From the sequence record PZ386967.1: a DNA stretch of 64,000 nt; one strand, written 5' to 3'. Source of the DNA: a phage. A program made the translations under genes and the position numbers. The first letter of the stretch is position 1; each line of letters opens with the position of its first letter. Under the pieces are notes generated by a model, which did no database searches, was not told where the DNA came from, and saw nothing but the letters and a program-made list of their open reading frames with translations. Positions 217 to 61,344 of the stretch are shown piece after piece.

Positions 217-540
217 ATGAGCAGTAAACCAACATATGTTGAAGTCATGCGTCATCTGGCTCAGTACGCCACTGACAATCTGAACTTGGATCTGTGGCGT
301 GACGATGACAAGCGCAAATTGCTGGACGACGTGGCATCTCAGAACGAGGACGCCCTAGACAAGCTGGCTGGCCTCCGCACCAAGAAAGACCTCGGCGGTG
401 ATGAACTGGACGCTATCGAAATTGTAATGGACCTCGAAGAAGAGTTTCAGGTCGAAATCGACGATGGTTGGCTGGGCAGTAAAGGTGATGACCCGACCAT
501 GGGTGAACTCGCTGAACTCGTGGTTGCCCTGCGCAAATAA
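217..540 (+). CDS. Acidic acyl-carrier-protein-like protein; carrier Ser position is Glu
   Basis: Segment DLGGDELDAIEIVMDLEEEFQVEI closely matches the ACP phosphopantetheine-site helix ([20 protein letters not shown]) but has DEL instead of DSL. Confidence 0.5.
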   Translation: MSSKPTYVEVMRHLAQYATDNLNLDLWRDDDKRKLLDDVASQNEDALDKLAGLRTKKDLGGDELDAIEIVMDLEEEFQVEIDDGWLGSKGDDPTMGELAELVVALRK

Positions 541-8642: not shown

Positions 8643-9406
8643 TAACCCGCAACGAAGGACAGATGGCACTTGACATTCGGTTCCAACGACGTCACAGAAA
8701 CCGTCATATTGTCCGTATCTTGGCTGAAGTCAATGGTGGCGAGAGGTTTGGTCTGAATATGGTTGTAAACACTGTAGATCAGATCCTCGCCACGATACCC
8801 TACCTTCCCGTCGGTGTCTTGCCAATGACCCAGTGTCTCATCGTAGACATGCACTCTGAACTCGATCATATGGAAGAGTGCCTTGGGGATGTCCTTGAGT
8901 ACGCTGGTGCCAACCACGGGAATCTCTATGCTGGAATCATTGGAGTTCCCTTCATATACCGAAGCCCATGCAAAGGTGGGATCTCCCCCAGCAACAGGGG
9001 TTCGCTTCCAGTATTGGAATTCTGGGTTGCCTGAAGCGTTCTTCTGAAGTAGAATGACCTCACCACCTTTGAAGTTCGAAGTATCGATGTCGCCTCGCTG
9101 AAGTTCATCTGCTGGAGATCCAATAAATTTCCAGCCTTCGCGATCCAGTAAAGACTTATAATAGTCGGTGAACACGTTGCTGTCTTCTGCATCGTTGATG
9201 GCATCTTTGAGACCTTGGCCTGTCACCATCTCGTTGAGCTTCAACCACATGTTCTTGACAGCAGACGCTGCTGCGACTTGTCCAGCAGTCCCACCTGCAG
9301 CATAATCATAGATGATATCTTCTGACTTGATAGCATCATAGATAGAGAGGAGCAATTGCTCAATCTGCGGGGCGGTGAGACTGAAACGATATGCGCGGGG
9401 TGTCAT
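8639..9406 (-). CDS. Hypothetical late protein, possibly virion-associated
   Basis: Start trimmed to MTPRAY with GGAG-type RBS; TATAAATA late-promoter octamer on the minus strand about 35 nt upstream. Confidence 0.5.
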   Translation of the reverse strand: MTPRAYRFSLTAPQIEQLLLSIYDAIKSEDIIYDYAAGGTAGQVAAASAVKNMWLKLNEMVTGQGLKDAINDAEDSNVFTDYYKSLLDREGWKFIGSPADELQRGDIDTSNFKGGEVILLQKNASGNPEFQYWKRTPVAGGDPTFAWASVYEGNSNDSSIEIPVVGTSVLKDIPKALFHMIEFRVHVYDETLGHWQDTDGKVGYRGEDLIYSVYNHIQTKPLATIDFSQDTDNMTVSVTSLEPNVKCHLSFVAGY

Positions 9407-9441
9407 AGTTTCATTCCTCTTTCTATAAAACCAGTTTGGGA

Positions 9442-9449
9442 TATTTATA
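9442..9449 (-). promoter_or_regulatory. T4-type late promoter TATAAATA
   Basis: Exact octamer on the minus strand in the 45 bp gap between divergent genes; coordinates approximate. Confidence 0.45.
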
Positions 9450-9451
9450 TC

Positions 9452-9979
9452 ATGATAGAAATTTATTCTGACGGGGGTTCTAACCCGAAGACCAACCAGG
9501 CCGCAGGCTGGGCATTTGTCATCAGGCCAATAACGGGTATGCAATGGAAGGTGTTCTTCGGCCATCTACCTCCCCCGTCCACTAACAATATCGCCGAGTT
9601 GTTGGGTGTGACCAACGCATTGAAGCTACTGTGGGCATTCTCAGGAAAGGGTGAGCGCAGAATACCAAAGGCAACAATTTGGTCTGACAGCCAATATGCC
9701 ATCAAGAGTGTCACCGAATGGCGAGCGAAGTGGGAGTATCAGGGTTTCCCAGAAAAGAACGTTGAACTCATCAAAGATCTGTTCAGAATCTATGATCTCG
9801 TTTGTTCAATTTGTGATGTTGAACTAAAATGGGTTAAGGGTCATGCGGGGCACGAAGGCAACGAACTTGCCGATGACTGGGCCACAGCAGCCAAAAACGA
9901 CAGCAACTTCCTGATTGAGAATGACAAGATCTCAGTGAAGAAGGTTGTTGGATCTTTTGATGAATTTATCGGTATCTGA
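9452..9979 (+). CDS. rnhA: Ribonuclease HI (bacterial type)
   Basis: IYSDGGS, TNNIAELLG, IWSDSQYAI, WVKGHAGHEGNELADDWA match RNase H1 catalytic motifs. Confidence 0.85.
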   Translation: MIEIYSDGGSNPKTNQAAGWAFVIRPITGMQWKVFFGHLPPPSTNNIAELLGVTNALKLLWAFSGKGERRIPKATIWSDSQYAIKSVTEWRAKWEYQGFPEKNVELIKDLFRIYDLVCSICDVELKWVKGHAGHEGNELADDWATAAKNDSNFLIENDKISVKKVVGSFDEFIGI

Positions 9980-9990
9980 GGGCTTTCATA

Positions 9991-10782
9991 ATGGGAATGA
10001 ACTTCGTGGACAGAGGGGAGAATGTCGTCAAATATTTCACGGACGAAGACAACGAGCGTGTCATTAGTATCCTTCGTGATTGGATCCCCGCCCGCAAGAA
10101 AGCACTTGCTGAGGGCACCAGGCTTCCAAAGATCCCCAACTATGTTGCTCTGCAGGTCCAGCGCATCATCACCAAGATGAGTACCCGCTACAACTATCGC
10201 GACTATCCCTTCCGTGAAGACATGGTCTCTGAAGCAATAGTCAACATCCTGCGCTACCTCCACACCTTTGACGTCGAACACATTGGAAAGAAAGGGAAGA
10301 TCAACTTCTTCTCTTGGGTGACCATGTGCGCTGATCGATCATTCGCTCGTAAACTGAATATCGAAGAAGAACACACGTACATCAAATTGCGCTCATTTGA
10401 AGAGGCGGGTGGGTTCGCAGGCCTGGCAGACGATCCCGACTTCCAACAAGAGATCTTTGTTGACGCGACAGGGATTGGTATGGACTTCCGTGAGCGTATC
10501 GGTAACTTTGAGAACAAAAAGGACGCTCAAAGGCAGAAGGAGCGAGAGAAGGTGGAGGCGGCTCGTCTCGCAGAATCGAATAAAAAGATTGCGAAAGGCA
10601 TACTTCAATACATGGCGCAGGCTAAGAATACGGTAACAGCGCAGGCCGAAGACAATTCAGATCAGGACTTTGGCAAAACCCAATTCAATCTGGAAGATGA
10701 TATCTGTGCGATGGAACCAGATTGGGAAGCCCTCAAACAAAGATTAGAAGAACGGGAGAAAAAGAATAATGGCGATTGCTAA
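9991..10782 (+). CDS. 55: Late-transcription sigma factor, gp55-like
   Basis: Central region resembles T4 gp55 from memory; lies immediately upstream of gp47/gp46. Confidence 0.5.
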   Translation: MGMNFVDRGENVVKYFTDEDNERVISILRDWIPARKKALAEGTRLPKIPNYVALQVQRIITKMSTRYNYRDYPFREDMVSEAIVNILRYLHTFDVEHIGKKGKINFFSWVTMCADRSFARKLNIEEEHTYIKLRSFEEAGGFAGLADDPDFQQEIFVDATGIGMDFRERIGNFENKKDAQRQKEREKVEAARLAESNKKIAKGILQYMAQAKNTVTAQAEDNSDQDFGKTQFNLEDDICAMEPDWEALKQRLEEREKKNNGDC

Positions 10783-11884
10783 AATCGGCGATCTGCATAT
10801 CGGGAGCCGTAATGGTTCCCGATACGTTCGCGACTTCATCAAGAACTACCTCATCAATTATTTCATCCCTGAACTTGTCGCCTCCGACATCCATGAGGTC
10901 TGGCAGTTTGGTGACACATTTGACGTCCGCAAATTCATGTACGGGCGTGACAAGGACTGGTTGAAAGATGAGCTGACTCCGGCGCTGAAAGCTGCTGGGA
11001 TCAAGTGGAATGGTATTGTTGGCAACCACGACATCACCCTGGAAGAGTCTAACCGCATCAACTGGCCATCCTACCTGAACGAACTCGACCCAGATGTATA
11101 CTGCTATTATAGCGAACCGACCGAAGTGATGATCGAGGGTGTCAAGACTCTGCTCCTACCGTGGATCAACAAGGAGAACTATGATGCGTCTATTAAGGCG
11201 TTACAAGATACAGACGCCGAGTACTGTTTTGCGCATCTGGAGTTGGCAGGGTTCAAAATGTACCAGTCCTCTACTTGTGATCACGGTCAGATCGACGTTG
11301 CGTTGCTTTCCAAGTTTACCAGGGTCGACACGGGGCATTTCCATACCCGTTCGATGGAAGGTAACATTCAGTATCTTGGGACTCCGTATCACCTGAACTG
11401 GGAAGACTACAAAGATGGCACCAACCGTGGCTTCTATGTGGACGACATGCGCGGCGGTGAGGTATTCATTCCCAACAGCGAGCACCAGACGTTGTTCCGC
11501 TATGTGGAATATGATTACACCAAGTTGTCCTCAGACGATGAGGGTAACTGGATCGACCCGGAATGGTTGAACACAGGCTTGGGTATTGAAGGGCAAATCG
11601 TTAAGGTTATTGTACAGAATCGCGACAATGCTAAGCATTATGAAAAGTTCTGTGATGCAATGAAGCGATGCAAGTGTATTGACTACAACTTCATCGACCG
11701 GACTATTACCGTAGCGGCTGAGAAGGTTGAGGTCACCGAAGAGATGGTGGCAACCGACGCAGTGGAAGTCCTAAAGAAGGATATCCGCGCCGGGAACAAC
11801 ATCCAGCGCCCTGAAAACGTCTGCAAGCTAGCAGAGCACTTCTACAACGCTGCCCAACAACGCCTGAATACACTGGATGCATAA
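10769..11884 (+). CDS. 47: Mre11/SbcD-like recombination nuclease subunit (gp47)
   Basis: N-terminal GDLHIG and GNHD metallophosphoesterase motifs; adjacent to Rad50-like gene. Confidence 0.85.
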   Translation: MAIAKIGDLHIGSRNGSRYVRDFIKNYLINYFIPELVASDIHEVWQFGDTFDVRKFMYGRDKDWLKDELTPALKAAGIKWNGIVGNHDITLEESNRINWPSYLNELDPDVYCYYSEPTEVMIEGVKTLLLPWINKENYDASIKALQDTDAEYCFAHLELAGFKMYQSSTCDHGQIDVALLSKFTRVDTGHFHTRSMEGNIQYLGTPYHLNWEDYKDGTNRGFYVDDMRGGEVFIPNSEHQTLFRYVEYDYTKLSSDDEGNWIDPEWLNTGLGIEGQIVKVIVQNRDNAKHYEKFCDAMKRCKCIDYNFIDRTITVAAEKVEVTEEMVATDAVEVLKKDIRAGNNIQRPENVCKLAEHFYNAAQQRLNTLDA

Positions 11885-14222
11885 CATGACTCAAAGTACA
11901 GATATCCTGGCCAAATTTGGCAATCTTTTGAAGGAAGCTGACACCCCGGTAGAGGTGGAAGTCCCATTTGAAGTGCGTGATAACGTTACGCACAAACTGA
12001 CTTTCCGCAAAGGTCGCGCCAAGAACTTCCGCTCCATCGGCAATCAGTTCATGGAGATTGATTATCAGCGCAACCCAGCCACCCTTGTCACGTCTGATGA
12101 CAACGGCGCGGGTAAATCCACGATGTTGGTATGGCTGCTGTTCTTCGTACTGTACAACACCACGTACAGTAAGAAGGAGAAGAAGGCAGGCCTGGTTAAC
12201 TCACAAAGCCGCAAGGAATGTGTGGGTGAGGTAGAGTTTGCCTGTCGTGGTAGTGAATGGAAAGTTCGCCGGGGTATCAAGCCCGACTTTGTTGAAGTCT
12301 ACCAGATGGTGGACGGTAAGTGGTTGCAGATCGATAACGAAGCAGCCAAGGCCGACATGAACAAGTACATCGTGAACCTCATCGGTGTAGACCAGAAGAT
12401 GTTTGAGAACTCTCTGGTGCTGGGTAAAGAGAAGTTCATTCCGTTTACGGAGATGTACACTGCCGACCGTCGCGCCATGGTGGAGACAATTTGGGACTTG
12501 GGCTTCTTCAGCCTGATGAACGAAGATGTCAAGGCCGCCATCAAAAAGGCAAATACAACTCTGGACTCCATATCTAACGAATGCGCACTGAAGGTTATTG
12601 ACCACACCAACAAGAAGACGCAGCTTCAGCAGATCGAGCAATCCAACGCTCTGATCCAACAGCAGTCGGCCGATATCCTTGTACAGCAACAGGAAGCCCT
12701 GAATTCCCTGGATGCTGACATCGCTTCCCAGAACGAAGAGCGCAGCCGCCTCACTGCGGTTGAGTTCGAAGCCACCCAGGAAATGAAGACGGTAGAAAAT
12801 CGCCTGAATGATGAATCCATGGTGGAGATCGAGGCTATCAAGAAAGACTTTGATGCCAAGATCCAGGCGGTGAAGGATGCCGCTCAGGAAAAGGCCGATG
12901 ATTATGAGCGCATCGAAGTGTCTACTGCGGAGCATGAACTTCAGGTCTTGCGTGACCGTGCCTTTACAGTGGCCGAAAGCAAGAACACCCTGCTCACCGA
13001 GCGCAACACAAACCTGGACGCCCTGAACGCTGCTATTCAGCGCCGCCAGCAGGGTGAGAACTTCCGCATCAAGTTCCAGACCGAAATGGACGGACATCAG
13101 TCGGCCATCAAGCGCTTCCACGACATGGGGACTTGCCCTACCTGTACCCAACTGGTGTCTGATGACACCAAGGCGCGGATTGAGAGTGAGTACAATCCTC
13201 AGATCCAGGAACTACAGTCGAAGTTAGATCAACTAGACAAAGTTACCGCCGATATCAATGTCCTGATCGATGATCACAAGGCTCAGGATGATAAGTTGGT
13301 TGCTGACATTGCTGTGTTGGACACTGAACTGGATGCAATGCGCAAGCAGGCTGACGAAATCGTTGACAACATCAAGCAGCTGCGCCGTGATATTCAAGGT
13401 TTTCATGATGCTGCCACGATTGAGTGTAATTCACTGAACCGTGAATGTCAACAGAAGATCCTTGACATCCGTAAGGCACTGAACGTTCGTTTTGAAGACA
13501 TCACTGCGTCACTACAACAAACTCGAGAGAATGCCGTCAGCGGGATTAAAGCCGTCGATGATAAGATCGCCGAGCTGAAAGCCCGTCGTGCTCCTCTCGT
13601 GGCGTCTATTGCCGATCTGGAGCGTAAACTGGCTGTACAGCCAACACCTACCACCGACCTGGAGAACTCTATCGCTGCGTTGGAAGGTGAACTGGAGTCT
13701 CTGTATGAACTCCGTGAAGATGCAGATGAGGAACTCCAGGACTTACAGCACCTGCTGTTCTTCTTGAAAGATGACCAGACCAAGGCGCGTATCATCGCCC
13801 TGTATCTGCCATTCCTCAATAGCAAGATCAACGAGTATCTTGAAGCCCTCAACATGTTCTTGGATATCGTTGTTGACGATACCTTTGAGATCACCATGAG
13901 CGCAGCAGGCCGCAAGGGGCAGAGTATCTTCTCCCTGTCTACTGGCCAACGCAGTCGTCTGAACCTGGCTGTGACATTAGCTCTGCGCGATGTGGCTAAC
14001 CTCAAGGCATCGGTGCAATGTAACCTGTTTGTCCTGGATGAAATCCTTGAGAACATGAGCGAGCGCGGGGTGCAGGAATCGGTTGAGATGTTGAAGCATA
14101 AGTTCGGCGGGAACAACCTGTTTGTTATTAGCCAGCGCGAACAGGAGTTCCAAGAATACTTCCAACACAACATTCGCTACGGCCTGCGAAACGGCCTGAC
14201 TGAAGTTATCAAGAAGGATTGA
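11877..14222 (+). CDS. 46: Rad50/SbcC-like recombination ATPase subunit (gp46)
   Basis: Walker A GAGKST, long coiled-coil, zinc hook CPTC, C-terminal ABC signature region. Confidence 0.85.
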   Translation: MHNMTQSTDILAKFGNLLKEADTPVEVEVPFEVRDNVTHKLTFRKGRAKNFRSIGNQFMEIDYQRNPATLVTSDDNGAGKSTMLVWLLFFVLYNTTYSKKEKKAGLVNSQSRKECVGEVEFACRGSEWKVRRGIKPDFVEVYQMVDGKWLQIDNEAAKADMNKYIVNLIGVDQKMFENSLVLGKEKFIPFTEMYTADRRAMVETIWDLGFFSLMNEDVKAAIKKANTTLDSISNECALKVIDHTNKKTQLQQIEQSNALIQQQSADILVQQQEALNSLDADIASQNEERSRLTAVEFEATQEMKTVENRLNDESMVEIEAIKKDFDAKIQAVKDAAQEKADDYERIEVSTAEHELQVLRDRAFTVAESKNTLLTERNTNLDALNAAIQRRQQGENFRIKFQTEMDGHQSAIKRFHDMGTCPTCTQLVSDDTKARIESEYNPQIQELQSKLDQLDKVTADINVLIDDHKAQDDKLVADIAVLDTELDAMRKQADEIVDNIKQLRRDIQGFHDAATIECNSLNRECQQKILDIRKALNVRFEDITASLQQTRENAVSGIKAVDDKIAELKARRAPLVASIADLERKLAVQPTPTTDLENSIAALEGELESLYELREDADEELQDLQHLLFFLKDDQTKARIIALYLPFLNSKINEYLEALNMFLDIVVDDTFEITMSAAGRKGQSIFSLSTGQRSRLNLAVTLALRDVANLKASVQCNLFVLDEILENMSERGVQESVEMLKHKFGGNNLFVISQREQEFQEYFQHNIRYGLRNGLTEVIKKD

Positions 14223-14225
14223 TCA

Positions 14226-14387
14226 TGAACTACGAACAAATTAAACTCGCAATACTGATCTTTGCATGCATCATTGACATCGTTGCGTTTTCTCGTGAAG
14301 TCGAAAGGAAAAACTACCTGAAATCACTGGGGTATCTCGGGTTCTCTGTCTGGTTCTGTTATCTACTTGCAGGTCAAATCCTGAAAT
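14226..14387 (+). CDS. Putative 53-aa membrane peptide
   Basis: Short ORF below the track cutoff with hydrophobic core; ATGA overlap with next gene; coordinates by hand. Confidence 0.25.
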
Positions 14388-14715
14388 GAAAGTCGTCCAC
14401 TTCAAGAAGGAGCCATATGACGTCTACATTGGTCGGCCTGGTAAATGGGGGAACCCGTTTGAGGTCAAAGACCATGGACGAGGCGTCTGTATCGAGCTGT
14501 TTGAGGACGACCTGTATGTGCGCCTGGTTGAAGGGGATATCACTGAGGATGAACTCCTTGAGCTTGACGGGAAGGTATTGGGGTGCTGGTGTAAGCCACG
14601 CCCCTGCCACGGGGATGTTTACGTCAAAGTCATTGGTCGTATTAAACTATTCCGCAAGCTGGGTAAATCCTTTACTGAACACCTGAGACAAACATATGTC
14701 AGAATCAAAAGATGA
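14386..14715 (+). CDS. DUF4326-like protein
   Basis: Motifs GNPF and CWCKPRPCHGDV. Confidence 0.45.
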   Translation: MKVVHFKKEPYDVYIGRPGKWGNPFEVKDHGRGVCIELFEDDLYVRLVEGDITEDELLELDGKVLGCWCKPRPCHGDVYVKVIGRIKLFRKLGKSFTEHLRQTYVRIKR

Positions 14716-14980
14716 AATCCAAGACTCCTGTGACATTGCAGTTGAAACCTGGAACCGTCGGAACCCGCATTACCAGGTGACTGTCACTCCGAATCGTTAT
14801 CTTGAGCAGGGCGGCCTGATTGTGGTTGATGCTGTACTCGCTTTCAACAAGTACCAAGATATGCAGATCCTGGACGGCAACTTTACCGTCGCGACCAAGA
14901 CGGCATGGGATGACCCTCTACAGTTCGTCTACGGCTGGCTGGAGTGTATCGAGGAATCCTACCACCTCATCTACGAATGA
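14696..14980 (+). CDS. Hypothetical protein
   Basis: ORF overlapping end of upstream gene. Confidence 0.4.
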   Translation: MSESKDEIQDSCDIAVETWNRRNPHYQVTVTPNRYLEQGGLIVVDAVLAFNKYQDMQILDGNFTVATKTAWDDPLQFVYGWLECIEESYHLIYE

Positions 14981-15077
14981 GGCTGAAGGGCACTAAATAT
15001 CACGTGCCCTTTATCTTTTAACCCCTGTCAGGAGGCTCAAGCGAGCTGCAAGTCGACAAAACATAAGGAACGCCATC

Positions 15078-15692
15078 ATGACGATGACAACGTTGAAGGC
15101 CATGGCCTTGTCCGTGACCTTTACCATTGCCAGCGGGAATGTGCACGCTTCCCAAAGTACCACCCAATGTGATTATAATTTCTCCGAGCAACAACTCAAT
15201 ACACTGGCAACTGCCTACCATGTAGGCAAGACACAAGACCTTGGTTACACCCTGGCTGCAATATCCTGGCGAGAGAGCCGCGCTGGTGAAGATGTAGTGT
15301 CAATGCGATACGGCCTCAAGGCGGCCAACATGGGAGCCTTTCAGAACAAGGTGAAGACAGTTGGTGATCGCGAAGGTTGTAAGAATCGCAAGTGCTATGC
15401 CAATGTCGCCATAAAGTTGCTGACCGACCAAGAATATGCCGCGCAAGCCGCCCTCGATGAGATGCAGTTCTGGCTGACCTATCACAATCAGAATATCCGC
15501 AAATCCCTCTCCTCTTACAATGCTGGCTTCGCCCGTAATCCTGCATCGAACGCTTATGCTGCCGACGTCGTGAAGAAAGCTAAATATCTTCAGAAATGTG
15601 TGTCTTTCGAAGGCCGGACCATCTCCGAGGTAGATCCTCGGGTGATCGCCATGAACAAGCACACAATAGAGAAACTGAAGAGGACAAGATAA
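15078..15692 (+). CDS. Secreted lytic-transglycosylase-like (SLT domain) protein
   Basis: Signal peptide; AISWRESRAG (E-S catalytic motif) and YNAG motif typical of family 1 lytic transglycosylases. Confidence 0.5.
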   Translation: MTMTTLKAMALSVTFTIASGNVHASQSTTQCDYNFSEQQLNTLATAYHVGKTQDLGYTLAAISWRESRAGEDVVSMRYGLKAANMGAFQNKVKTVGDREGCKNRKCYANVAIKLLTDQEYAAQAALDEMQFWLTYHNQNIRKSLSSYNAGFARNPASNAYAADVVKKAKYLQKCVSFEGRTISEVDPRVIAMNKHTIEKLKRTR

Positions 15693-35666: not shown

Positions 35667-35898
35667 TTATCAATGCAAGGGCTGTGGTAACGCGATGACA
35701 CTGCGTAAATCTATTGCAGATCGCCATGAGCCTGAATCCAACCCTTGCACTGAGTGCGGAGGGGAGATTAAAATGATCGTGGGTGCTCCCAAGATTGTCT
35801 CTGGGGTGAAGGGACCACAATCAGCTCCAGACGGCTTCAAGGACGTCTTGCGTACGATAAAGAAGGGTTCGGGTAAGGGGAACACAATCGATGTCTGA
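35653..35898 (+). CDS. FmdB-family zinc-ribbon protein
   Basis: MPLYDYQCKGCG ... CTECGG matches the FmdB regulatory zinc-ribbon signature. Confidence 0.5.
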   Translation: MPLYDYQCKGCGNAMTLRKSIADRHEPESNPCTECGGEIKMIVGAPKIVSGVKGPQSAPDGFKDVLRTIKKGSGKGNTIDV

Positions 35899-36136
35899 CG
35901 AAAAACAGCCAGCGCTTGTGATGACACCAGAATTATTTTCTGAAATCGTCCTACTACGCGCCGCCCAAACCAAGGATAGTATCCTTGAGACTCTGGCAGC
36001 TGTCTGTGAAGAGAACGACATAGACGAGACCAAAGTCAAAAAGATGATTACAGCACCATTGTTGTCACGACTGACAGCTGAGTGCTCCGATGCGCGCCTG
36101 ATCAAAGACGCGCTAAAGTCTAAGAAATTAGTGTAG
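35891..36136 (+). CDS. Hypothetical protein
   Basis: ORF overlapping upstream stop. Confidence 0.4.
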   Translation: MSDEKQPALVMTPELFSEIVLLRAAQTKDSILETLAAVCEENDIDETKVKKMITAPLLSRLTAECSDARLIKDALKSKKLV

Positions 36137-41360: not shown

Positions 41361-41434
41361 TTTAAGTTCAGAAACTGTTCAAAAGATGAAGGGGCTGCTA
41401 TAATAGCAGCTCCTTTTGTTTATTGGAGCAGTTT

Positions 41435-42094
41435 ATGTCCTACTCCCTGAAGGGGTTGATGAAGCGCCCCGTCCACACATTCTTTAAACCACCCGTCGTA
41501 AAGGGGATCTACCCAGCACGAGGGCAAATCTACTACGTCAAAGGCTCCAATGGTAGCGGTAAATCCACTGTGCCGTCTCAGCTGGCGGAGAGGGATCCTC
41601 AGGCGTATGTCGTGACCCATAATGGCAAGGTCATGCTGACTGTCTGTCCTTCGTTCAACGTGGTCTGTATCGGTAAATATGACAAGTCGAAGTCCAAGGG
41701 GGTTGATTCCCTGAAGGACACTGAGCAGATGTTGTTCGCGTTGTCTATTGCTGACCAACCAGAATACTTGAAATATGATGTGATTTTCGAAGGTATCATT
41801 CCATCCACATTATTGAGTTCTTGGATCCCCCGTCTGACACGCCCACCACGTGAATTGGTTGTGCTCTTTATGGACACTCCTCTTGAAACGTGTATCACCC
41901 GCGTTAAATCACGTAACGGCGGTGTGGACTTCAATGAAAGTCTGGTGGTCGAGAAGTGGGAGAGAGTTCATGACCATCGTCAACGACATAAAGACTTGTT
42001 CCCTACGGTAGCTGCGGGTATGATGAAGTCTCACGGCCTAACGGTAGACCAGGCTGTGATGGCATTCCTCTGTCGTGATTTTGGGAGTATCTGA
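41435..42094 (+). CDS. P-loop kinase of unknown substrate (candidate nucleotide or DNA-base kinase)
   Basis: Start trimmed to MSYSL; Walker A GSNGSGKST; first gene of a translationally coupled nucleotide-metabolism operon. Confidence 0.5.
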   Translation: MSYSLKGLMKRPVHTFFKPPVVKGIYPARGQIYYVKGSNGSGKSTVPSQLAERDPQAYVVTHNGKVMLTVCPSFNVVCIGKYDKSKSKGVDSLKDTEQMLFALSIADQPEYLKYDVIFEGIIPSTLLSSWIPRLTRPPRELVVLFMDTPLETCITRVKSRNGGVDFNESLVVEKWERVHDHRQRHKDLFPTVAAGMMKSHGLTVDQAVMAFLCRDFGSI

Positions 42095-43140
42095 TGGAAA
42101 TCAAAGCAATTAACAACAATGACATGCTGAAGCAGGCTGTCTTGGCTATCCGTGAATTCGGGATCGAATCTGATCCTGGTAATGCTGAAATCAATACTGA
42201 TAGCACCCGCTTCCTTGATGGTGTGACTATCACTGTTTCCGATATTCGTGACCGCTGGCTCTCCGTTGAAGGTCGCAACTCATCGGCTATCGCTGCCATC
42301 GGCGAGACCTTCTGGGTGTTGTCAGGTCGCAACGACATAAAGTTCCTGTCACGCGTATTGCCTCGCGCTGCTAACTTTTCGGATGATGGGGTAACATGGC
42401 GAGCTGCTTATGGTCCGCGTCTGTACGCCCATGGCCAGCTGGATAGCGTTATCAACCGCCTGCGCAAGAACCCAAACACTCGTCAGGCGTACCTCACCAT
42501 CTATGACCCGGCTCTAGATTCGGATGCTGGTCTGGCGAAGTTCAGCGAGAGCGGCGAAGCAAAGACTAAAGACATGGTGTGTAACCTGGCTCTGTTGTTC
42601 GCCATCGTTGAAGGTCGTCTGAACCTGACGGTCATCAATCGCTCACAGGATGTTCTGTGGGGGATGAGTTCAATCAACTTCATTGAGTTCTCTATTCTTC
42701 AGGAAGTGATTGCTCGGGTGTTAGATGTTGATGTCGGTCAGTACAAGCTCTTCTCCAACAATCTTCATTACTACAACAATGAAGTCAGCCAGAAGCAGCT
42801 GGGAAAGATCACGAAGGACACCAAAGTAGAAGCTGGGTTCATCAACACCATGATTCACTTCACGAACGTGACCAACCAGAACCATATCCGCAATCTGTTC
42901 ACTGGTGTGCTTCATCACTGTGATATCGGTAGCCCGTGGGAAACTGTGGTTGCTCACCTGAAGGAATACGATGCGGATCGCGGCCTGATTGTACAGATGG
43001 CGTACTGTCTGCACTGCAAACTGAACGAAAAGCTCATTAACCTGGACCTGATTCAGGATCATGGCTTGAACACCGCGCTCACCCATTCTCCGGTTGACCG
43101 CAAGATCGTTGATCCTAAGTTCCTGGAAGGTGTAGTATGA
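42094..43140 (+). CDS. Thymidylate-synthase-family pyrimidine hydroxymethylase-like enzyme (dUMP or dCMP hydroxymethylase candidate)
   Basis: Catalytic-Cys region DMVCNLALLF and NRSQDVLWG align to T4 gp42 (FMCTNT, MRSNDVVFG) and TS (PCH, QRSCDVFLG); lacks canonical TS WNP and PCH motifs; about 100 aa C-terminal extension. Confidence 0.6.
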   Translation: MEIKAINNNDMLKQAVLAIREFGIESDPGNAEINTDSTRFLDGVTITVSDIRDRWLSVEGRNSSAIAAIGETFWVLSGRNDIKFLSRVLPRAANFSDDGVTWRAAYGPRLYAHGQLDSVINRLRKNPNTRQAYLTIYDPALDSDAGLAKFSESGEAKTKDMVCNLALLFAIVEGRLNLTVINRSQDVLWGMSSINFIEFSILQEVIARVLDVDVGQYKLFSNNLHYYNNEVSQKQLGKITKDTKVEAGFINTMIHFTNVTNQNHIRNLFTGVLHHCDIGSPWETVVAHLKEYDADRGLIVQMAYCLHCKLNEKLINLDLIQDHGLNTALTHSPVDRKIVDPKFLEGVV

Positions 43141-43706
43141 TGTACCCAAATCTTGAATTCTTTACGGGGCGCAAACGCTCCGGTAAGGACTTCTGTTTGG
43201 AGTCCCTCATCAGCTATCACCAACTACAGGGTGATATGGACATCCAGCGCCTTTCGTTCTCAGATGAACTGCGCCGTGTGGCCAACTACATCTACCCATG
43301 GCTGCCAGCGGAGGTAGAGGATGCCGTGAAGGACGTTCCTTACGTGCACCCTGATAACCCCAAGGGCTTAACTCCACGGCAGATCTGGCTTCATCTGGGC
43401 AGCGATACGGGCTTGCGTTACGTACAGCCTGATCTGTTCCTGGCATTCTTCAAGCGCTTCCAGCTTCCTCTGGTAGAGCAGAACCCCCACGTCCATTATA
43501 TCGTGAGTGATCTGCGTACCCCTCAGGAATATGAATGGGCGCTGAGTACGAAATGTCCTATCACCCGTATTTCAAAGGCCGACCGTGCTGGTATCATAGA
43601 GGACGATATAGAGGCTTTCATTGACCAAATGAAAGTGGACTACGAATTCCTCAATCCATTTGATGGTTGGGAACCGTTCGTTAAATTCTACGGAGAACGT
43701 AAATGA
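43137..43706 (+). CDS. 1: Deoxynucleoside monophosphate kinase, gp1-like
   Basis: FTGRKRSGKDF matches T4 gp1 LSGVKRSGKDT; VSDLRTPQEYE resembles gp1 VPDTRQDHEMD. Confidence 0.65.
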   Translation: MMYPNLEFFTGRKRSGKDFCLESLISYHQLQGDMDIQRLSFSDELRRVANYIYPWLPAEVEDAVKDVPYVHPDNPKGLTPRQIWLHLGSDTGLRYVQPDLFLAFFKRFQLPLVEQNPHVHYIVSDLRTPQEYEWALSTKCPITRISKADRAGIIEDDIEAFIDQMKVDYEFLNPFDGWEPFVKFYGERK

Positions 43707-44257
43707 TCACAGCAGGACATATCAAAAGCCTGCTCGAACTCCAAAAGGCCACCAACGTGGCCTATTTTGGGGAAGAGTGGAAGAATGTATGGAGTCAGAA
43801 CGCAGTCATCAACTCTATCTATCGTGAGTGGGCAGAGTTCCTTGATGAAACCACCCGTGACTGGAAGGTCTATGGCAACGACATCAGGTTTGACCATACG
43901 AACGCAGTTTATGAACTGGTGGACGTGGTACACTTCATGTTGTGCTTCATCCTTGTGGACCGCACCAAAGGTGAGATCGAAGAAGAATTTGAAGTCCTTA
44001 GCAATCGCGAATTCACCCCATCTGCTTTGGGTGTTGTAGGGCATCGCAATGTTACGTACCGCCTTGGGCAATTCATGAACGATCCTTGCGTTGAGACTCT
44101 CATGTTCTTCCTGTCGTCTGCGTGTTCTTATATGGAGATCGACATTGAGACTTACATGCTGGCACACAAACGCAAGAACGATCGCAATCGTCTGCGTGCT
44201 TCTGGTGGTGTGGATTACGACAAGTCCGCAGAAACCCCTCTGACCCTGGAGTTCTAA
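43703..44257 (+). CDS. 56: All-alpha NTP pyrophosphatase, gp56 dCTPase/dUTPase-like
   Basis: YELVDVVHFMLCF matches T4 gp56 FELVDIFHFVLNMF. Confidence 0.6.
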   Translation: MITAGHIKSLLELQKATNVAYFGEEWKNVWSQNAVINSIYREWAEFLDETTRDWKVYGNDIRFDHTNAVYELVDVVHFMLCFILVDRTKGEIEEEFEVLSNREFTPSALGVVGHRNVTYRLGQFMNDPCVETLMFFLSSACSYMEIDIETYMLAHKRKNDRNRLRASGGVDYDKSAETPLTLEF

Positions 44258-44799
44258 TGTTTACAGTCGTCGTTTCATACCATGCGGAGAACGCTGCTCA
44301 GGCATCCTCCAAATTCGCCGAGCACATCATCGGCGGCGGCCATAATGTATTCCTTACCGAATACAACAGGCCTGTTAAACCGGGCGACGGTCTTTCGGCG
44401 ACTGTTACGCATAAGATCGCCAGCGAGCAACCAGAGTCTCTGTTCAGAATGATCGAAGAGTATGCCAGTGGTGGCATCAAGATACCAGATGAACTGGTAG
44501 ACGTCTATTTCGAAGGCTCGATCTATTACATCCACGCTATGCCAAAGGATATAACCATTGAACAGATGATGTATATCCTGAATATAGCACTGAACACTGC
44601 GTGCATCAACCGCACGAACTACAACAATCTGCGCAATATGTACCTAACCGACCGGCATAATGACGCATCGTCACTTGTTGAGACAATGTCCCTGAAGAGC
44701 ATCCAAGAGGCGGTTAACATTTTGTCCCAGAAGGTTATGGGTGTAGACTTACTAACGACGATTAACAACAAAGAGGAAGTGAAATGGCCAGTTCATTAA
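44257..44799 (+). CDS. Hypothetical protein within the nucleotide-metabolism operon
   Basis: 180 aa ORF, start overlaps upstream stop. Confidence 0.5.
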   Translation: MFTVVVSYHAENAAQASSKFAEHIIGGGHNVFLTEYNRPVKPGDGLSATVTHKIASEQPESLFRMIEEYASGGIKIPDELVDVYFEGSIYYIHAMPKDITIEQMMYILNIALNTACINRTNYNNLRNMYLTDRHNDASSLVETMSLKSIQEAVNILSQKVMGVDLLTTINNKEEVKWPVH

Positions 44800-45869
44800 T
44801 GGACCGCATGCTGAAGGTTGCTAAGAAACACGATGACCAGGCTTCAGTGCTGTCCCAATCAGACGCTCTGGAACCGTCTATCATCTGTTCTACTGGTATT
44901 CCCCTGATCGACATCGCATGGTCTGGGCGTATTGACGGCGGTCTGATCTCCGGTATCAAGATGATGGTGGGTGATTCCCGTACCTTCAAAACGATGTTCG
45001 GCCTGGTCGATGTCAAGGCGTACATGGACAAGTTCCCTGATGCTATCTGCGTCTTTGCGGACTCAGAAAAGGGTGCCAACGCAGATTACTGGACCTCTAT
45101 GGATATTGACATGGACCGCGTCCTGTACGTACCGATCGACAACGTTGAACAGACCAAGATCCGCTTGCTACAGATCCTACAGGAAGTCAAGAAAGGCGAC
45201 CATGTTATTGTCTTCATCGACTCTATCAGCCAACTTCCCTCCACCAAGGAAGTTGAAGATGCGATCAAAGGGAACGACACTCAAGACATGACCCGCGCCC
45301 GTGCCCTCAACAGCTTCTGGCGTGTCATGACTCCTGAAATCAACAGCAAAAATCTCGTGTGTGTTTGGATCAACTCCTATTACGATGAGATCGGCAACCA
45401 GTATGCCGAGCCCAACATCAAAGGCGGCAAGCAGGGCTTCTTATCCTCCAACTTGATCTGGTTTATCACCCGTTCTCAGGTGAAGGAAGACAAAGATCTG
45501 CTGGGCTGGAACTTCAACATAAGCATCATGAAAGGTCGCCATGTCAAAGAGAAAGCCAAGCTCCCTGTGACGGTACTGTACAACGGTGGTATTGATCGCT
45601 GGAGCGGCCTGCTTGAGATCGCTCGTGCTCTGGGTTATGTTGATATGCCGTCTTCCGGCTGGTATGTGCGTACAGCCAAGGGTGGTTTCGATCCTGAGAA
45701 GGAAAAGAAATATCAGAAGCGTCAGATGGGTGATGATTTCTGGTATCCGCTGCTGGAGAATGTCAACTTCGCCGATGACGTGAAGAAAATGTTCGGTGTT
45801 TCTAACGGTACTGTTATGCCTGCTAACATGCTGGAGCAAATGGACCATGTTATTAACACAAGCGAATAA
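44784..45869 (+). CDS. uvsX: UvsX RecA-like recombinase
   Basis: Extensive similarity to T4 UvsX from memory (DAVCLFYDSE versus DAICVFADSE; VVFIDSL; DMTRAK; GGIDPYSGLL). Confidence 0.85.
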   Translation: MASSLMDRMLKVAKKHDDQASVLSQSDALEPSIICSTGIPLIDIAWSGRIDGGLISGIKMMVGDSRTFKTMFGLVDVKAYMDKFPDAICVFADSEKGANADYWTSMDIDMDRVLYVPIDNVEQTKIRLLQILQEVKKGDHVIVFIDSISQLPSTKEVEDAIKGNDTQDMTRARALNSFWRVMTPEINSKNLVCVWINSYYDEIGNQYAEPNIKGGKQGFLSSNLIWFITRSQVKEDKDLLGWNFNISIMKGRHVKEKAKLPVTVLYNGGIDRWSGLLEIARALGYVDMPSSGWYVRTAKGGFDPEKEKKYQKRQMGDDFWYPLLENVNFADDVKKMFGVSNGTVMPANMLEQMDHVINTSE

Positions 45870-46182: not shown

Positions 46183-47607
46183 ATGTTACTCGAATCTGTC
46201 GTGCTTTCACAGTTGATTTACAATGAAGATTACCAAAGAAAGATCCTGCCGTACCTGAAAGCCGATTATTTTGACAACGAAGGCGAAAAGGTCATCTTTG
46301 GCCTGATTGACAGTTATACCTCAGAGTACAATGCCCGCCCGTCTGTCGAAGCACTATCTATCATTCTTGAACGGACAAAGTTGAACGAATATGTGTTTGA
46401 CCAGGCAGTGACTGCCCTGGAGAACATCAACGACAACACCTTCAATGAAGAGTGGCTGGCGAAGGAAACCGAGGCTTGGGCGCGGCAAAAAGCCGTACAC
46501 AACGCAATCAAGACCGCCGTCAACATCTACGGTGACGAGAAGCGCAAGGACGAGATGAACAACATCCCGACCATGTTGCAGGAAGCCCTGGCTATCCGGT
46601 TTGATTCATACCTCGGTCACATCTATTGGGAGATGGCGGCAGAGCAGTATGACCACATGAACTCCAACGAGGCCAAGATCCCGTTCGCAGTTGAGATCTT
46701 CAATAAGGCGACACGTGGTGGCGTTGGTAAGAAGACACTGAACATCGTAACAGGTGCGATCAACGCAGGTAAGACCACAACGCTGATTGACCTGACCGCA
46801 GGGTACTCGGAGCAGGGGCTGAACGTCTTTGTCTTCACCCTTGAAGTGGCCGAGAACGTCTGGCGACACCGTCTTGATGCCCGTATCATGCGTCGCGACT
46901 TTGAGTCTTTAGAGAAACTCACAAGGCACGAGTATATTGCAACGATAGAGAAGCTCCGCAGTCGCCAAGATGGTGCGCCCAAGGGTGATATCGTCATCAA
47001 GGAATATCCTTCTGGTACTGGACACACGGGTTTATTCCGCCGCGATATCCTTGAGTACATCCAGGCAACAGGTCGTGCTCCTGATGTTATCGTTATTGAC
47101 TATCTTGGCGAAGCTGCTTCCTCGCGCCTGCCTTCCCACCTGATGCAGAACACGAACGTCTATTACACGTCTGTGGCTCGTGAGTTTCGTGCGCTGGGAT
47201 TTGAGTTTGATGTCCCTGTATGGACTGGTATGCAGTTCAATCGTGAGAATCAGAATAGCACTGATGGTGGAATCAGTGATCTGGCAGATGCTATCGGTAT
47301 TCCGAAGGTGGCCGACTTCATCATGGCATTCTATGCTCCTGACGAACTGGCGGCGGTCAAGAAAGCCCGAGCCTCAATACTCAAGAACCGTTATGCCAAC
47401 AAGCAGAAGCTGAAGTCATTCCTGTTTGGTATGGACCAAGACAAACAGATCCTGTTTGACCTGGACTGGAACGAAGTTAAGAAGGATCTGACTGAGGCTG
47501 AGGCCAAATATGTCGAAAACGTACACATCAAACATGACCTCAACAAGTCCGGGGCTGCTGCCAGCGATGAGCAGAAAGCCCAAACAGTCAATAATTGGAA
47601 ATTCTAG
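46183..47607 (+). CDS. 41: Replicative DnaB-like helicase gp41
   Basis: Walker A GAINAGKTT; strong collinearity with T4 gp41 including C-terminal NWKF/ELKF ending. Confidence 0.85.
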   Translation: MLLESVVLSQLIYNEDYQRKILPYLKADYFDNEGEKVIFGLIDSYTSEYNARPSVEALSIILERTKLNEYVFDQAVTALENINDNTFNEEWLAKETEAWARQKAVHNAIKTAVNIYGDEKRKDEMNNIPTMLQEALAIRFDSYLGHIYWEMAAEQYDHMNSNEAKIPFAVEIFNKATRGGVGKKTLNIVTGAINAGKTTTLIDLTAGYSEQGLNVFVFTLEVAENVWRHRLDARIMRRDFESLEKLTRHEYIATIEKLRSRQDGAPKGDIVIKEYPSGTGHTGLFRRDILEYIQATGRAPDVIVIDYLGEAASSRLPSHLMQNTNVYYTSVAREFRALGFEFDVPVWTGMQFNRENQNSTDGGISDLADAIGIPKVADFIMAFYAPDELAAVKKARASILKNRYANKQKLKSFLFGMDQDKQILFDLDWNEVKKDLTEAEAKYVENVHIKHDLNKSGAAASDEQKAQTVNNWKF

Positions 47608-60834: not shown

Positions 60835-61344
60835 TTATTTGTCAGGGTTCACTAAAACAGGGGTGGATACCAGTTCGCCGTTCTTCACAGAATGCTGGAC
60901 TACAACAAACTGATCGACCATGCGATATACTTCAATTCCAGCAGCCAGCATGTCAATAATGCCGTCTATGATACGATATGGTCGGTCATAGAACACTTTA
61001 GCGATCTTGCCACTGTCGATAATACGACGGGTGCACTCTGGGCATGGACTATGAGTGACAAACATCACTAGGCCACAACAGTCTTCAGTGTGCTGGGGGA
61101 GTTTGCTCAGAGCATTCTCCTCGGCGTGGATAACACCCACCGATACCAGTTGACCGTCTACTTCCTTCTCACAGACATTAGGAGCGCCAGGAGCAGTCCC
61201 GTTCCAACCGATAGACAGGGGCTGGTCAACACGCGGGTCAACGATAACACAGCCGACCTTCAGGCGCTGGGCATAGCTGGACAGGGCGTATGCATGAGCC
61301 GAGCGCATATGCGCAAATAACATACGGGGTTTGATAGCCATCAC
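60835..61344 (-). CDS. cd: dCMP deaminase
   Basis: Zinc-binding HAEENAL and SPCPEC motifs. Confidence 0.8.
   Translation of the reverse strand: MMAIKPRMLFAHMRSAHAYALSSYAQRLKVGCVIVDPRVDQPLSIGWNGTAPGAPNVCEKEVDGQLVSVGVIHAEENALSKLPQHTEDCCGLVMFVTHSPCPECTRRIIDSGKIAKVFYDRPYRIIDGIIDMLAAGIEVYRMVDQFVVVQHSVKNGELVSTPVLVNPDK

What the first reader, a model, noticed from the sequence alone, without database searches (positions are those of the whole stretch)
9991..14222. gp55-gp47-gp46 in one co-directional block with no glucosyltransferase gene
In T4 (as I recall the map) alpha-gt lies between gene 47 and gene 55 and beta-gt next to uvsX. Here 55, 47 and 46 are contiguous in that order and no GT-like ORF lies by uvsX. 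This fits DNA that is not glucosylated in the T4 manner and strengthens the case that any modification follows a different route.
Basis: partly seen in the sequence, partly recalled or inferred. Interest (0 to 1): 0.4.

Follow-up and report, generated by a model that had tools for sequence, protein, structure and literature searches.

The report
ViI-like phage lacks T4 glucosyltransferases
The three genes are a conserved core block of an Agtrevirus (ViI-like) phage, and it has no glucosyltransferase because this phage family modifies thymine instead of glucosylating cytosine, which is already known.

Summary
ORFs 9991-10782, 10769-11884 and 11877-14222 encode homologues of T4 gp55 (late sigma factor), gp47 (Mre11/SbcD-like nuclease) and gp46 (Rad50/SbcC-like ATPase). 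They are co-directional and overlap by 14 and 8 nt, so no other gene fits between them. No glycosyltransferase was found in the 64-kb window or in the nearest complete relative.

The window is an Agtrevirus (Ackermannviridae): 96.8% identical to Salmonella phage vB_CECAV_050 and 93% to Shigella phage Ag3.

Beside uvsX sits the front end of the ViI-type thymidine hypermodification pathway:
- a 5-hmdU DNA kinase, 88% identical to the biochemically characterised ViI gp67;
- a thymidylate-synthase-family dUMP hydroxymethyltransferase;
- a dNMP kinase;
- an NTP pyrophosphohydrolase.

A dCMP deaminase lies elsewhere in the window. The nearest relative also carries the serine:DNA transferase and the PLP decarboxylase that complete 5-NeOmdU synthesis.

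The gene order is weak evidence on its own. 55-47-46 is the common order in T4-like phages, and alpha-gt occurs only in T-even phages.

Verdict: real, ordinary, already known.

The parts
9452..9979 (+). RNase H gene directly upstream of the block. The ORF is open from 9356; relatives annotate the start equivalent to 9452.
   Evidence: Pfam RNase_H E 4.9e-24. phrog_531 E 2.5e-59. Same position in ViI, Ag3 and Vibrio phage Kuja.
9991..10782 (+). gp55-like late-transcription sigma factor, 263 aa. It carries a C-terminal extension of about 55-80 aa relative to T4 gp55.
   Evidence: phrog_234 E 3.4e-52. T4 gp55 hits the same profile at E 2.9e-69. 74.5% identical to the ViI protein annotated as late sigma factor. 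No pairwise similarity to T4 gp55.
10769..11884 (+). gp47-like Mre11/SbcD-family nuclease subunit, 371 aa.
   Evidence: 33% identical to T4 gp47, E 9e-32. phrog_100 E 3.3e-106. Phosphoesterase motifs DLH, GDTFD, GNHD and GHFH are present.
11877..14222 (+). gp46-like Rad50/SbcC-family ATPase subunit, 781 aa. It has a long coiled coil and a CPTC zinc-hook motif.
   Evidence: BLASTP to T4 gp46 at both ends, E 2e-21 and 1e-19. Pfam SMC_N and AAA_23. phrog_77 E 9.6e-163. CPTC at residue 420, signature STGQ, Walker B FVLDE.
35891..36133 (+). gp33-like late-transcription co-activator, the partner of gp55.
   Evidence: tblastn with the ViI protein annotated Gp33: 72% identity, E 1.6e-33.
41423..42094 (+). 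5-hydroxymethyl-dU DNA kinase (5-HMUDK), orthologue of ViI gp67.
   Evidence: Pfam PF18748 HMUDK_HMUD1 E 3.6e-107. 88% identical to ViI YP_004327432.1, which PMC8989533 lists as ViI gp67 5-hmdU DNA kinase and shows to phosphorylate 5-hmdU DNA.
42094..43140 (+). Thymidylate-synthase-family pyrimidine hydroxymethylase (dUMP hydroxymethyltransferase).
   Evidence: Pfam Thymidylat_synt E 1.1e-15. 77% identical to the ViI 'thyA' next to gp67. Best PDB sequence matches are CMP 5-hydroxymethylase, E 1.5e-17, ahead of thymidylate synthases at E 3.6e-9 or weaker. PMC5889632 reports 5-HMUDK co-associated with dU hmt in this phage group.
43137..43706 (+). Deoxynucleoside monophosphate kinase.
   Evidence: phrog_139 E 1.2e-47. 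Same position as ViI 'dnk'.
43703..44257 (+). Nucleoside triphosphate pyrophosphohydrolase of the dimeric dUTPase type.
   Evidence: Pfam dUTPase_2 E 2.3e-7. phrog_173 E 4.7e-39.
44257..44799 (+). ACT_phage-domain protein of unknown role, located between the nucleotide enzymes and uvsX.
   Evidence: Pfam PF24021 E 7.4e-78.
44784..45869 (+). UvsX recombinase.
   Evidence: tblastn with T4 UvsX: 35% identity, E 4.4e-73. Pfam RecA and T4_UVSX_C.
46183..47607 (+). gp41-like replicative helicase.
   Evidence: Pfam DnaB_C E 1e-13. Same position as ViI Gp41.
60835..61344 (-). dCMP deaminase, which supplies dUMP.
   Evidence: Pfam dCMP_cyt_deam_1 E 8.9e-15. phrog_174 E 1.6e-52.

Best explanation
The window comes from an Agtrevirus (Ackermannviridae, the ViI-like phages). 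Region 9991-14222 is a conserved, tightly packed stretch of core genes, probably co-transcribed.

gp55 is the late sigma factor. It redirects host RNA polymerase to late promoters together with gp33, which is encoded at 35891-36133, and the sliding clamp. gp47/gp46 is the Mre11/Rad50-type nuclease that resects DNA ends for UvsX-dependent recombination and replication.

No glucosyltransferase lies here or beside uvsX because this lineage does not make hydroxymethylcytosine. It modifies thymine instead. The inferred pathway is:
1. dCMP deaminase supplies dUMP.
2. A thymidylate-synthase-family enzyme converts dUMP to 5-hmdUMP.
3. A dNMP kinase, with host kinases, takes it to the triphosphate, while a pyrophosphohydrolase trims competing dNTPs.
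4. The polymerase incorporates 5-hmdU into DNA.
5. 5-hmdU DNA kinase phosphorylates it in the DNA.
6. A serine:DNA transferase and a PLP-dependent decarboxylase, encoded outside the window in relatives, convert part of it to 5-(2-aminoethoxy)methyl-dU (5-NeOmdU).

Shown here: gene identities, order, absence of GT homologues, and orthology to the characterised ViI enzymes. Inferred: that this particular phage's virion DNA contains 5-NeOmdU, the roles of the kinase and pyrophosphohydrolase, and the single transcription unit.
For: Taxonomy: megablast gives 96.8% identity over the full 4232 nt to Agtrevirus vB_CECAV_050 and 93% to Ag3 and SKML-39.

Gene identities.

The same order, RNase H-55-47-46, occurs in ViI and Vibrio phage Kuja. 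The order 55-47-46 also occurs in a T4-like cyanophage and, with only two small a-gt.x ORFs inserted, in Aeromonas phage 44RR2.8t.

Absence of a GT:
- No glycosyltransferase family appeared in Pfam scans of all 97 window ORFs of 50 aa or more, or of the antisense ORFs in the block.
- None of the 199 annotated features of the nearest relative is a GT.
- Pfam scans of 30 of its hypothetical or ambiguously named proteins found none.
- tblastn with T4 alpha-gt, beta-gt and gp42 found nothing.

Alternative pathway in the window:
- PF18748 5-hmdU DNA kinase, E 3.6e-107, 88% identical to ViI gp67.
- TS-like hydroxymethylase, 77% identical to the ViI homologue.
- dNMP kinase, dUTPase_2 and dCMP deaminase.

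In the nearest relative, outside the window: HMUDK_hel, HMUD2, ADDT (89% identical to ViI gp247 serine:DNA transferase) and a PLP enzyme (92% identical to ViI gp226 decarboxylase).

Literature:
- ViI gp67, gp243, gp247 and gp226 were reconstituted in vitro (PMC8989533).
- 5-NeOmdU replaces about 40% of T in ViI, CBA120 and CBA6. Ag3 and SKML-39 are listed as 5-HMUDK-encoding ViI-like phages 'likely' to contain it (PMC5889632).
- The modification genes are reported as conserved across Ackermannviridae (PMC11721090).
- 5-NeOmdU was confirmed by HPLC-MS in a Taipeivirus (bioRxiv 10.64898/2026.05.19.726188).
Against: - Only 64 kb of roughly 150-160 kb is in hand. The transferase, the decarboxylase and the second kinase are seen only in relatives, not in this genome.
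- I found no direct chemical measurement of DNA from any Agtrevirus.
- gp55 homology rests on a shared profile family, not on pairwise similarity. Pfam gave no hit for gp55 or gp47 at E 0.01 or better.
- The substrate of the TS-like enzyme (dUMP rather than dCMP) is inferred from orthology to ViI. The usual specificity residue is ambiguous: Asn lies one position off the T4 gp42 Asp / E. coli ThyA Asn column in my alignment.
- A highly divergent GT-B fold enzyme among the unknown-function proteins cannot be excluded by sequence profiles alone.
Confidence: 0.9

Rival explanations
1. The phage does glucosylate hydroxymethylcytosine as T4 does, and the glucosyltransferase and dCMP hydroxymethylase genes simply lie outside the 64-kb window.
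For: About 90 kb of the genome is not in the window. Ackermannviridae gene organisation is described as scattered (PMC11721090).
Against: The complete nearest relative (96.8% identical over the block) has no GT annotation. It has no Pfam GT among its hypothetical proteins. It has no tblastn hit to T4 alpha-gt, beta-gt or gp42. The only TS-family hydroxymethylase is the orthologue of the ViI dU hmt. ViI-group DNA contains canonical dC plus a modified T (PMC5889632).
Confidence: 0.02
2. The DNA carries 5-hmdU itself, or a 5-hmdU-derived end product other than 5-NeOmdU, possibly in addition to it, because the downstream enzymes of this genome differ from ViI's.
For: - I found no direct measurement for any Agtrevirus.
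- The second kinase (HMUD2) of the nearest relative is only 48% identical to ViI gp243 and carries an extra N-terminal region of about 235 aa.
- Early literature assumed plain hydroxymethyluracil (PMC11721090).
- Related pathways give different products with similar enzyme sets (PMC8989533).
Against: The product-determining enzymes of the nearest relative are 89% (serine:DNA transferase) and 92% (PLP decarboxylase) identical to the characterised ViI enzymes. The same product was measured in Kuttervirus, a Vibrio ViI-like phage and a Taipeivirus.
Confidence: 0.07
3. The DNA is unmodified, as in many T4 relatives that lack the T4 modification network, and the hydroxymethylase and kinase genes serve only nucleotide metabolism.
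For: Many T4-related phages lack genes 42 and 56 and the GT genes, and probably have unmodified DNA (PMC2993671).
Against: The window encodes an intact orthologue of an enzyme that acts on 5-hmdU in DNA (PF18748, 88% identical to ViI gp67). That enzyme has no role without 5-hmdU-containing DNA. The full pathway is conserved in the nearest relative.
Confidence: 0.01

Closest known systems
Salmonella phage ViI (Vi01; Kuttervirus, Ackermannviridae) and its 5-NeOmdU thymidine hypermodification pathway
   Same: The local gene order is identical: helicase / RNase H / gp55 / gp47 / gp46, and gp67 kinase / thyA-like / dnk / dUTPase / unknown / uvsX / unknown / gp41. Protein identities are 72-90% for gp55, gp47 and gp46, 88% for 5-HMUDK and 77% for the hydroxymethylase.
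   Different: The genus and subfamily differ (Agtrevirus, Aglimvirinae). Nucleotide identity is only in the 60-80% band. The chemistry was demonstrated for ViI, not for this phage or any Agtrevirus that I could find.
Agtrevirus phages vB_CECAV_050, Ag3 (phiSboM-AG3) and SKML-39
   Same: 93-97% nucleotide identity over the whole block, with the same genes in the same order. Ag3 and SKML-39 are already listed among 5-HMUDK-encoding ViI-like phages (PMC5889632).
   Different: Differences are small. Annotated start codons for gp47 and gp46 differ. The 994-aa ORF downstream (17146-20130) varies in length or is split among relatives.
Phage T4 (Tequatrovirus): genes 55 / a-gt / 47 / 46 and 42 / b-gt / uvsX, with glucosyl-hydroxymethylcytosine DNA
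   Same: Homologous gp47, gp46 and UvsX, and gp55 at profile level. The order and orientation 55 > 47 > 46 are the same. In both phages a TS-family pyrimidine hydroxymethylase gene lies a few genes upstream of uvsX-41.
   Different: T4 has a-gt, mobB and small ORFs inserted between 55 and 47, and b-gt and segA between 42 and uvsX. None of these exist here. T4 modifies cytosine (dCMP hydroxymethylase plus glucosyltransferases). This lineage modifies thymine (dUMP hydroxymethylase, then DNA kinase, amino-acid transferase and decarboxylase).

Membership tests
T4 gp55 late sigma factor family | Sequence homology to gp55 across the whole sigma-like domain | tested here: met
   The window protein matches phrog_234 at E 3.4e-52 over profile positions 5-178 of 181. 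T4 gp55 matches the same profile at E 2.9e-69 over 3-180 of 181. Pairwise BLASTP (E 96) and phmmer against PDB chains find nothing, so the homology is visible only at profile level.
T4 gp55 late sigma factor family | Co-occurrence with the gp33 co-activator and the gp45 sliding clamp | tested here: met
   A gp33 homologue lies at 35891-36133, 72% identical to the ViI protein annotated Gp33. A clamp ('DNA polymerase processivity factor') is annotated in the nearest relative, outside the window.
T4 gp55 late sigma factor family | C-terminal clamp-binding motif | tested here: inconclusive
   T4 gp55 ends in ...SLDFLYEAND. The window protein has a longer tail containing DQDFGKTQFNLEDD, which is conserved in ViI as DNDFGSTQFSLED. 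That this is the clamp-binding element is my guess; it was not tested.
Mre11/SbcD nuclease (T4 gp47) | Homology to gp47 and the calcineurin-like phosphoesterase motifs I-V | tested here: met
   33% identical to T4 gp47, E 9e-32. Motifs DLH, GDTFD, GNHD and GHFH align with T4's DWH, GDIFD, GNHD and GHFH. phrog_100 E 3.3e-106. Pfam gave no hit for this protein at E 0.01 or better.
Rad50/SbcC ATPase (T4 gp46) | Split ABC-type ATPase head (Walker A, signature, Walker B) separated by a coiled coil with a CxxC zinc hook | tested here: met
   Pfam SMC_N E 1.1e-10 spans residues 48-761; AAA_23 also matches. BLASTP to both ends of T4 gp46. Motifs are NGAGKST, STGQ, FVLDE and CPTC at residue 420; T4 has CPTC at 288. 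Two deviations: the first Walker A Gly is Asp, and the position aligned with the H-loop His of T4 ('IISHKD') is Gln ('VISQRE'). Both also occur in ViI.
T4-type DNA glucosyltransferases (alpha-gt, beta-gt) and GT-family enzymes generally | An ORF with sequence similarity to T4 alpha-gt or beta-gt, or to any glycosyltransferase profile | tested here: not met
   tblastn with T4 alpha-gt and beta-gt against the window and the whole nearest relative gave best E 0.35 and 1.8, while the UvsX control gave 4e-73. No glycosyltransferase family appeared in the Pfam scans or the PHROG scans. A fold-level search was not done.
T4-type hydroxymethylcytosine pathway | A dCMP hydroxymethylase (gp42) homologue | tested here: not met
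   tblastn with T4 gp42 gave best E 0.13, at an unrelated place. The only TS-family enzyme is the orthologue of the ViI dUMP hydroxymethyltransferase.
ViI-type thymidine hypermodification (5-NeOmdU) system | 5-hmdU DNA kinase adjacent to a TS-family dUMP hydroxymethyltransferase | tested here: met
   ORFs 41423-42094 (PF18748, E 3.6e-107, 88% identical to ViI gp67) and 42094-43140 (77% identical to ViI thyA-like) abut each other.
ViI-type thymidine hypermodification (5-NeOmdU) system | Serine:DNA transferase (aGPT-Pplase2/ADDT), PLP-dependent decarboxylase and a second kinase | tested here: inconclusive
   These are not in the window. In the nearest relative: ADDT PF18724 E 9.6e-59, 89% identical to ViI gp247; PLP enzyme 92% identical to gp226; HMUD2 PF18747 E 1.8e-156; HMUDK_hel PF18723 E 3.7e-81. 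Their presence in this genome is inferred from 97% relatedness.
ViI-type thymidine hypermodification (5-NeOmdU) system | 5-NeOmdU (a 301-Da nucleoside) replacing part of dT in virion DNA | not testable with these tools
   This needs LC-MS of virion DNA. It has been measured for ViI, CBA120, CBA6 and 1.255.O (PMC5889632) and for a Taipeivirus (bioRxiv 10.64898/2026.05.19.726188). I found no measurement for an Agtrevirus.

The most novel reading that the evidence does not exclude
This Agtrevirus may carry a thymine modification that differs from, or adds to, the 5-NeOmdU measured in other Ackermannviridae genera. I found no direct chemical measurement for the genus. Its second 5-hmdU kinase has diverged from ViI's (48% identity, with an extra N-terminal region in the nearest relative).

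A weaker, related idea concerns the slot just upstream of uvsX-41. It holds a pyrimidine hydroxymethylase plus the DNA-level modifying enzyme in both T4 (42 and b-gt) and Ackermannviridae (dU hmt and 5-HMUDK). It may therefore be a shared, exchangeable 'modification slot'.
Probability: 0.07. Interest if true: 0.4.

Novelty: already known. Interest (0 to 1): 0.1.

Why it matters
It adds little. It shows that a reader working from raw sequence correctly inferred that a T4-like-looking phage does not use T4's glucosyl-hydroxymethylcytosine chemistry. The real reason is the published thymidine hypermodification pathway of ViI-like phages, whose first DNA-level enzyme sits beside uvsX in this window.

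There are two practical points:
- This DNA is expected to resist many restriction enzymes.
- Automatic annotation still mislabels the 5-hmdU DNA kinase as 'terminase small subunit'.

Tried and rejected
- Pairwise BLASTP of the gp55-like protein against T4 gp55 and phmmer against all PDB chains found nothing. The assignment had to rest on the shared PHROG profile.
- Pfam gave no family for gp55 or gp47 at E 0.01 or better.
- The sigma-70 promoter and intrinsic terminator scan of 8600-15200 gave counts near the shuffled expectation (8 vs 6.7 and 9 vs 5.8). It says nothing about operon structure.
- The T4 late-promoter motif TATAAATA occurs only 3 times in 64 kb, none in front of the block. This is uninformative.
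- I tried to decide dUMP versus dCMP specificity of the TS-like enzyme from the Asn/Asp specificity residue. The alignment places the window's Asn one position away from T4 gp42's Asp, so this is ambiguous. Substrate assignment rests on orthology to ViI.
- I considered that long antisense ORFs inside gp46 (316 and 241 aa) might hide a gene. They have no family match and are treated as shadow ORFs.
- I considered that the large unknown ORFs (994 aa, 648 aa, 408 aa and others) might be a GT. PHROGs place them in unknown-function or structural families. They were not tested at fold level.

Full report
**What the window is.** Megablast of 9991-14222 against the phage collection gives full-length hits at 96.8% identity to Salmonella phage vB_CECAV_050. 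It gives 93-95% to Enterobacter phage fGh-Ecl02, Escherichia phage AV101, Shigella phage Ag3 and Salmonella phage SKML-39, with 243 matching records in all. The annotated records place these in Ackermannviridae, Aglimvirinae, Agtrevirus. G+C is about 49% throughout, with no compositional break at the block.

**Checking the observation.** The finding's coordinates coincide with ORF boundaries: gp55-like 9991-10782, gp47-like 10769-11884 and gp46-like 11877-14222, all on the + strand.
- The gp47-like protein is 33% identical to T4 gp47 (E 9e-32). It has the phosphoesterase motifs DLH, GDTFD, GNHD and GHFH.
- The gp46-like protein matches both ATPase halves of T4 gp46 (E 2e-21 and 1e-19) and Pfam SMC_N and AAA_23. 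It carries a CPTC zinc-hook motif in its coiled coil, as T4 gp46 does.
- The gp55-like protein shows no pairwise similarity to T4 gp55 or to any PDB chain, and has no Pfam hit. It matches PHROG family 234, 'late sigma transcription factor', end to end at E 3.4e-52. T4 gp55 matches that same profile at E 2.9e-69. A gp33 homologue lies at 35891-36133.

The genes overlap by 14 and 8 nt. RNase H ends 11 nt upstream, and the next ORF overlaps the gp46 stop. There is therefore no room for another gene. The antisense ORFs inside the block match nothing.

It reads 55 / a-gt.5-.2 / mobB / a-gt / 47.1 / 47 / 46.2 / 46.1 / 46, and 42 / b-gt / segA / uvsX / 40 / 41.

**Is there a glucosyltransferase anywhere?**
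- I translated all 97 ORFs of 50 aa or more that survive a simple overlap filter. I scanned them against Pfam-A as concatenated sets, with the key proteins scanned singly. No glycosyltransferase family appeared.
- PHROG scans of the block, the uvsX neighbourhood and the large unknown ORFs gave none either.
- tblastn with T4 alpha-gt, beta-gt and gp42 against the window and the entire genome of the nearest relative gave only noise (best E 0.13-0.35). The T4 UvsX positive control scored E 4e-73.
- None of the 199 annotated features of that relative is a glycosyltransferase. A Pfam scan of 30 of its hypothetical or ambiguously named proteins outside the window found none.

**What lies beside uvsX instead.** UvsX is at 44784-45869. 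Upstream, in order, are:
- 41423-42094: Pfam PF18748 '5-hmdU DNA kinase', E 3.6e-107.
- 42094-43140: thymidylate-synthase family.
- 43137-43706: dNMP kinase.
- 43703-44257: dUTPase_2-type NTP pyrophosphohydrolase.
- 44257-44799: ACT_phage.

Downstream is the gp41 helicase. A dCMP deaminase is at 60835-61344 on the minus strand.

Phage ViI has exactly this order. The kinase is 88% identical to ViI YP_004327432.1. Lee et al. list that protein as ViI gp67, a 5-hmdU DNA kinase, and show that it phosphorylates 5-hmdU DNA (PMC8989533). The TS-like protein is 77% identical to its ViI neighbour. Its best matches among solved structures are pyrimidine hydroxymethylases (CMP 5-hydroxymethylase, E 1.5e-17) rather than thymidylate synthases (E 3.6e-9 or weaker). 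Lee et al. 2018 note that 5-HMUDK co-associates with a dUMP hydroxymethyltransferase of the TS superfamily in these phages (PMC5889632).

**The rest of the pathway.** It is not in the window. The nearest relative encodes four further components:
- HMUDK_hel (PF18723, E 3.7e-81).
- HMUD2 (PF18747, E 1.8e-156).
- An amino-acid:DNA transferase (PF18724, E 9.6e-59), 89% identical to ViI gp247, the serine:DNA transferase.
- A PLP enzyme 92% identical to ViI gp226, the decarboxylase.

The ViI pathway has been reconstituted as 5-hmdU, then 5-phosphomethyl-dU, then O-serinyl-T, then 5-NeOmdU (PMC8989533).

5-NeOmdU replaces about 40% of T in ViI, CBA120 and CBA6. [quoted passage not shown] A 2024 review states that the modification genes are conserved across Ackermannviridae (PMC11721090). 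The base has since been measured in a Taipeivirus (bioRxiv 10.64898/2026.05.19.726188). I found no direct measurement for an Agtrevirus.

**How diagnostic is the gene order?** Not very.
- RNase H-55-47-46 occurs in ViI and in the distant Ackermannviridae member Vibrio phage Kuja.
- 55-47-(small ORF)-46 occurs in the T4-like cyanophage metaG-MbCM1.
- Aeromonas phage 44RR2.8t has 55 / a-gt.5 / a-gt.4 / 47 / 46 with no alpha-gt.
- Petrov et al. report alpha-gt in T-even-type phages only, and beta-gt in T4 and CC31 only (PMC2993671).

The T4 arrangement is thus the exception: lineage-specific insertions between conserved core genes. Contiguity of 55-47-46 is the common state.

**Mechanism and confidence.** The most likely account has three parts.
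- gp55, with gp33 and the clamp, drives late transcription.
- gp47/gp46 resects DNA ends for UvsX-mediated, recombination-dependent replication.
- The DNA is protected by partial replacement of T with a 5-hmdU-derived base, made by pre-replicative synthesis of 5-hmdUTP and post-replicative kinase, transferase and decarboxylase steps.

Gene identities, order, absence of GT and gp42 homologues, and orthology to the ViI enzymes are shown here. The end product in this phage, the roles of the dNMP kinase and pyrophosphohydrolase, and the single transcription unit are inferred. The promoter/terminator scan was uninformative. I put 0.9 on the overall explanation and about 0.07 on a different or additional end product.

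**Verdict.** Interest is low.

Noticed in passing
window 41423-42094 (also ViI YP_004327432.1, L007:13203-13865): The 5-hmdU DNA kinase falls in phrog_800, which is labelled 'terminase small subunit'. The ViI RefSeq record carries the same product name. Pfam PF18748 and published biochemistry identify it as a DNA kinase. The nearest relative's record leaves it as a hypothetical protein. This looks like a propagating misannotation.
   Followed up: partly
window 11877-14222 (gp46-like): The protein is about 220 aa longer than T4 gp46, with a longer coiled coil. The position aligned with T4's H-loop His ('FIISHKD') is Gln ('FVISQRE'), and the first Walker A Gly is Asp ('DDNGAGKST'). The ViI protein has the same C-terminal sequence and likewise lacks the canonical Walker A pattern.
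   Followed up: no
window 9991-10782, residues about 209-263 of the gp55-like protein: There is a charged C-terminal extension that T4 gp55 lacks. It contains the motif DNSDxDFGxTQFxLED and the ending KNNGDC, both conserved with ViI. It may be the clamp-binding element.
   Followed up: no
window 17146-20130: This 994-aa ORF has no Pfam match. It belongs to phrog_3867 (unknown function), with a weak match to an 'internal head protein' family at residues 796-851. Its length varies among relatives: 3075 nt in vB_CECAV_050, 2400 nt in ViI, and split into three ORFs in Ag3.
   Followed up: partly
window 217-540 and 2732-3181: An acyl-carrier-protein-like ORF matches PP-binding at E 7.5e-4 and PP-binding_2 at E 1.2e-5. 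A 149-aa ORF is labelled 'cytidyltransferase' in the nearest relative, but it has no Pfam match and only an unknown-function PHROG. The role of an ACP in this phage is unclear.
   Followed up: partly
L006:28644-30242 (vB_CECAV_050, outside the window): The second 5-hmdU DNA kinase (HMUD2) is annotated 'endonuclease'. It is 532 aa, against 304 aa in ViI. The kinase part (residues 238-532) is only 48% identical to ViI gp243. The extra N-terminal region begins with a sequence that resembles a GIY-YIG motif (YHYTYRITHVPTGRFYVGI). It may be a homing-endonuclease fusion or a misjoined ORF.
   Followed up: no
window 42094-43140: The closest solved-structure sequences to the TS-like enzyme are the CMP 5-hydroxymethylase entries 5b6d and 5jnh (E about 1.5e-17), well ahead of any thymidylate synthase. 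T4 dCMP hydroxymethylase is not among the 60 matches listed, of 69 found. The protein also has a C-terminal region of about 100 aa that T4 gp42 lacks.
   Followed up: partly
window 12201-13151 and 13448-14173, minus strand: Two long antisense ORFs (316 and 241 aa) lie wholly inside the gp46 gene. Neither matches any Pfam family. They are probably shadow ORFs of the repetitive coiled-coil coding sequence.
   Followed up: yes
window 39286-40035 and 40521-41360: Two conserved ORFs of unknown function (phrog_4253, phrog_3905) sit immediately upstream of the 5-hmdU DNA kinase. ViI has ORFs in the same position (Vi01_062c and Vi01_064c). I do not know whether they belong to the modification module.
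   Followed up: no
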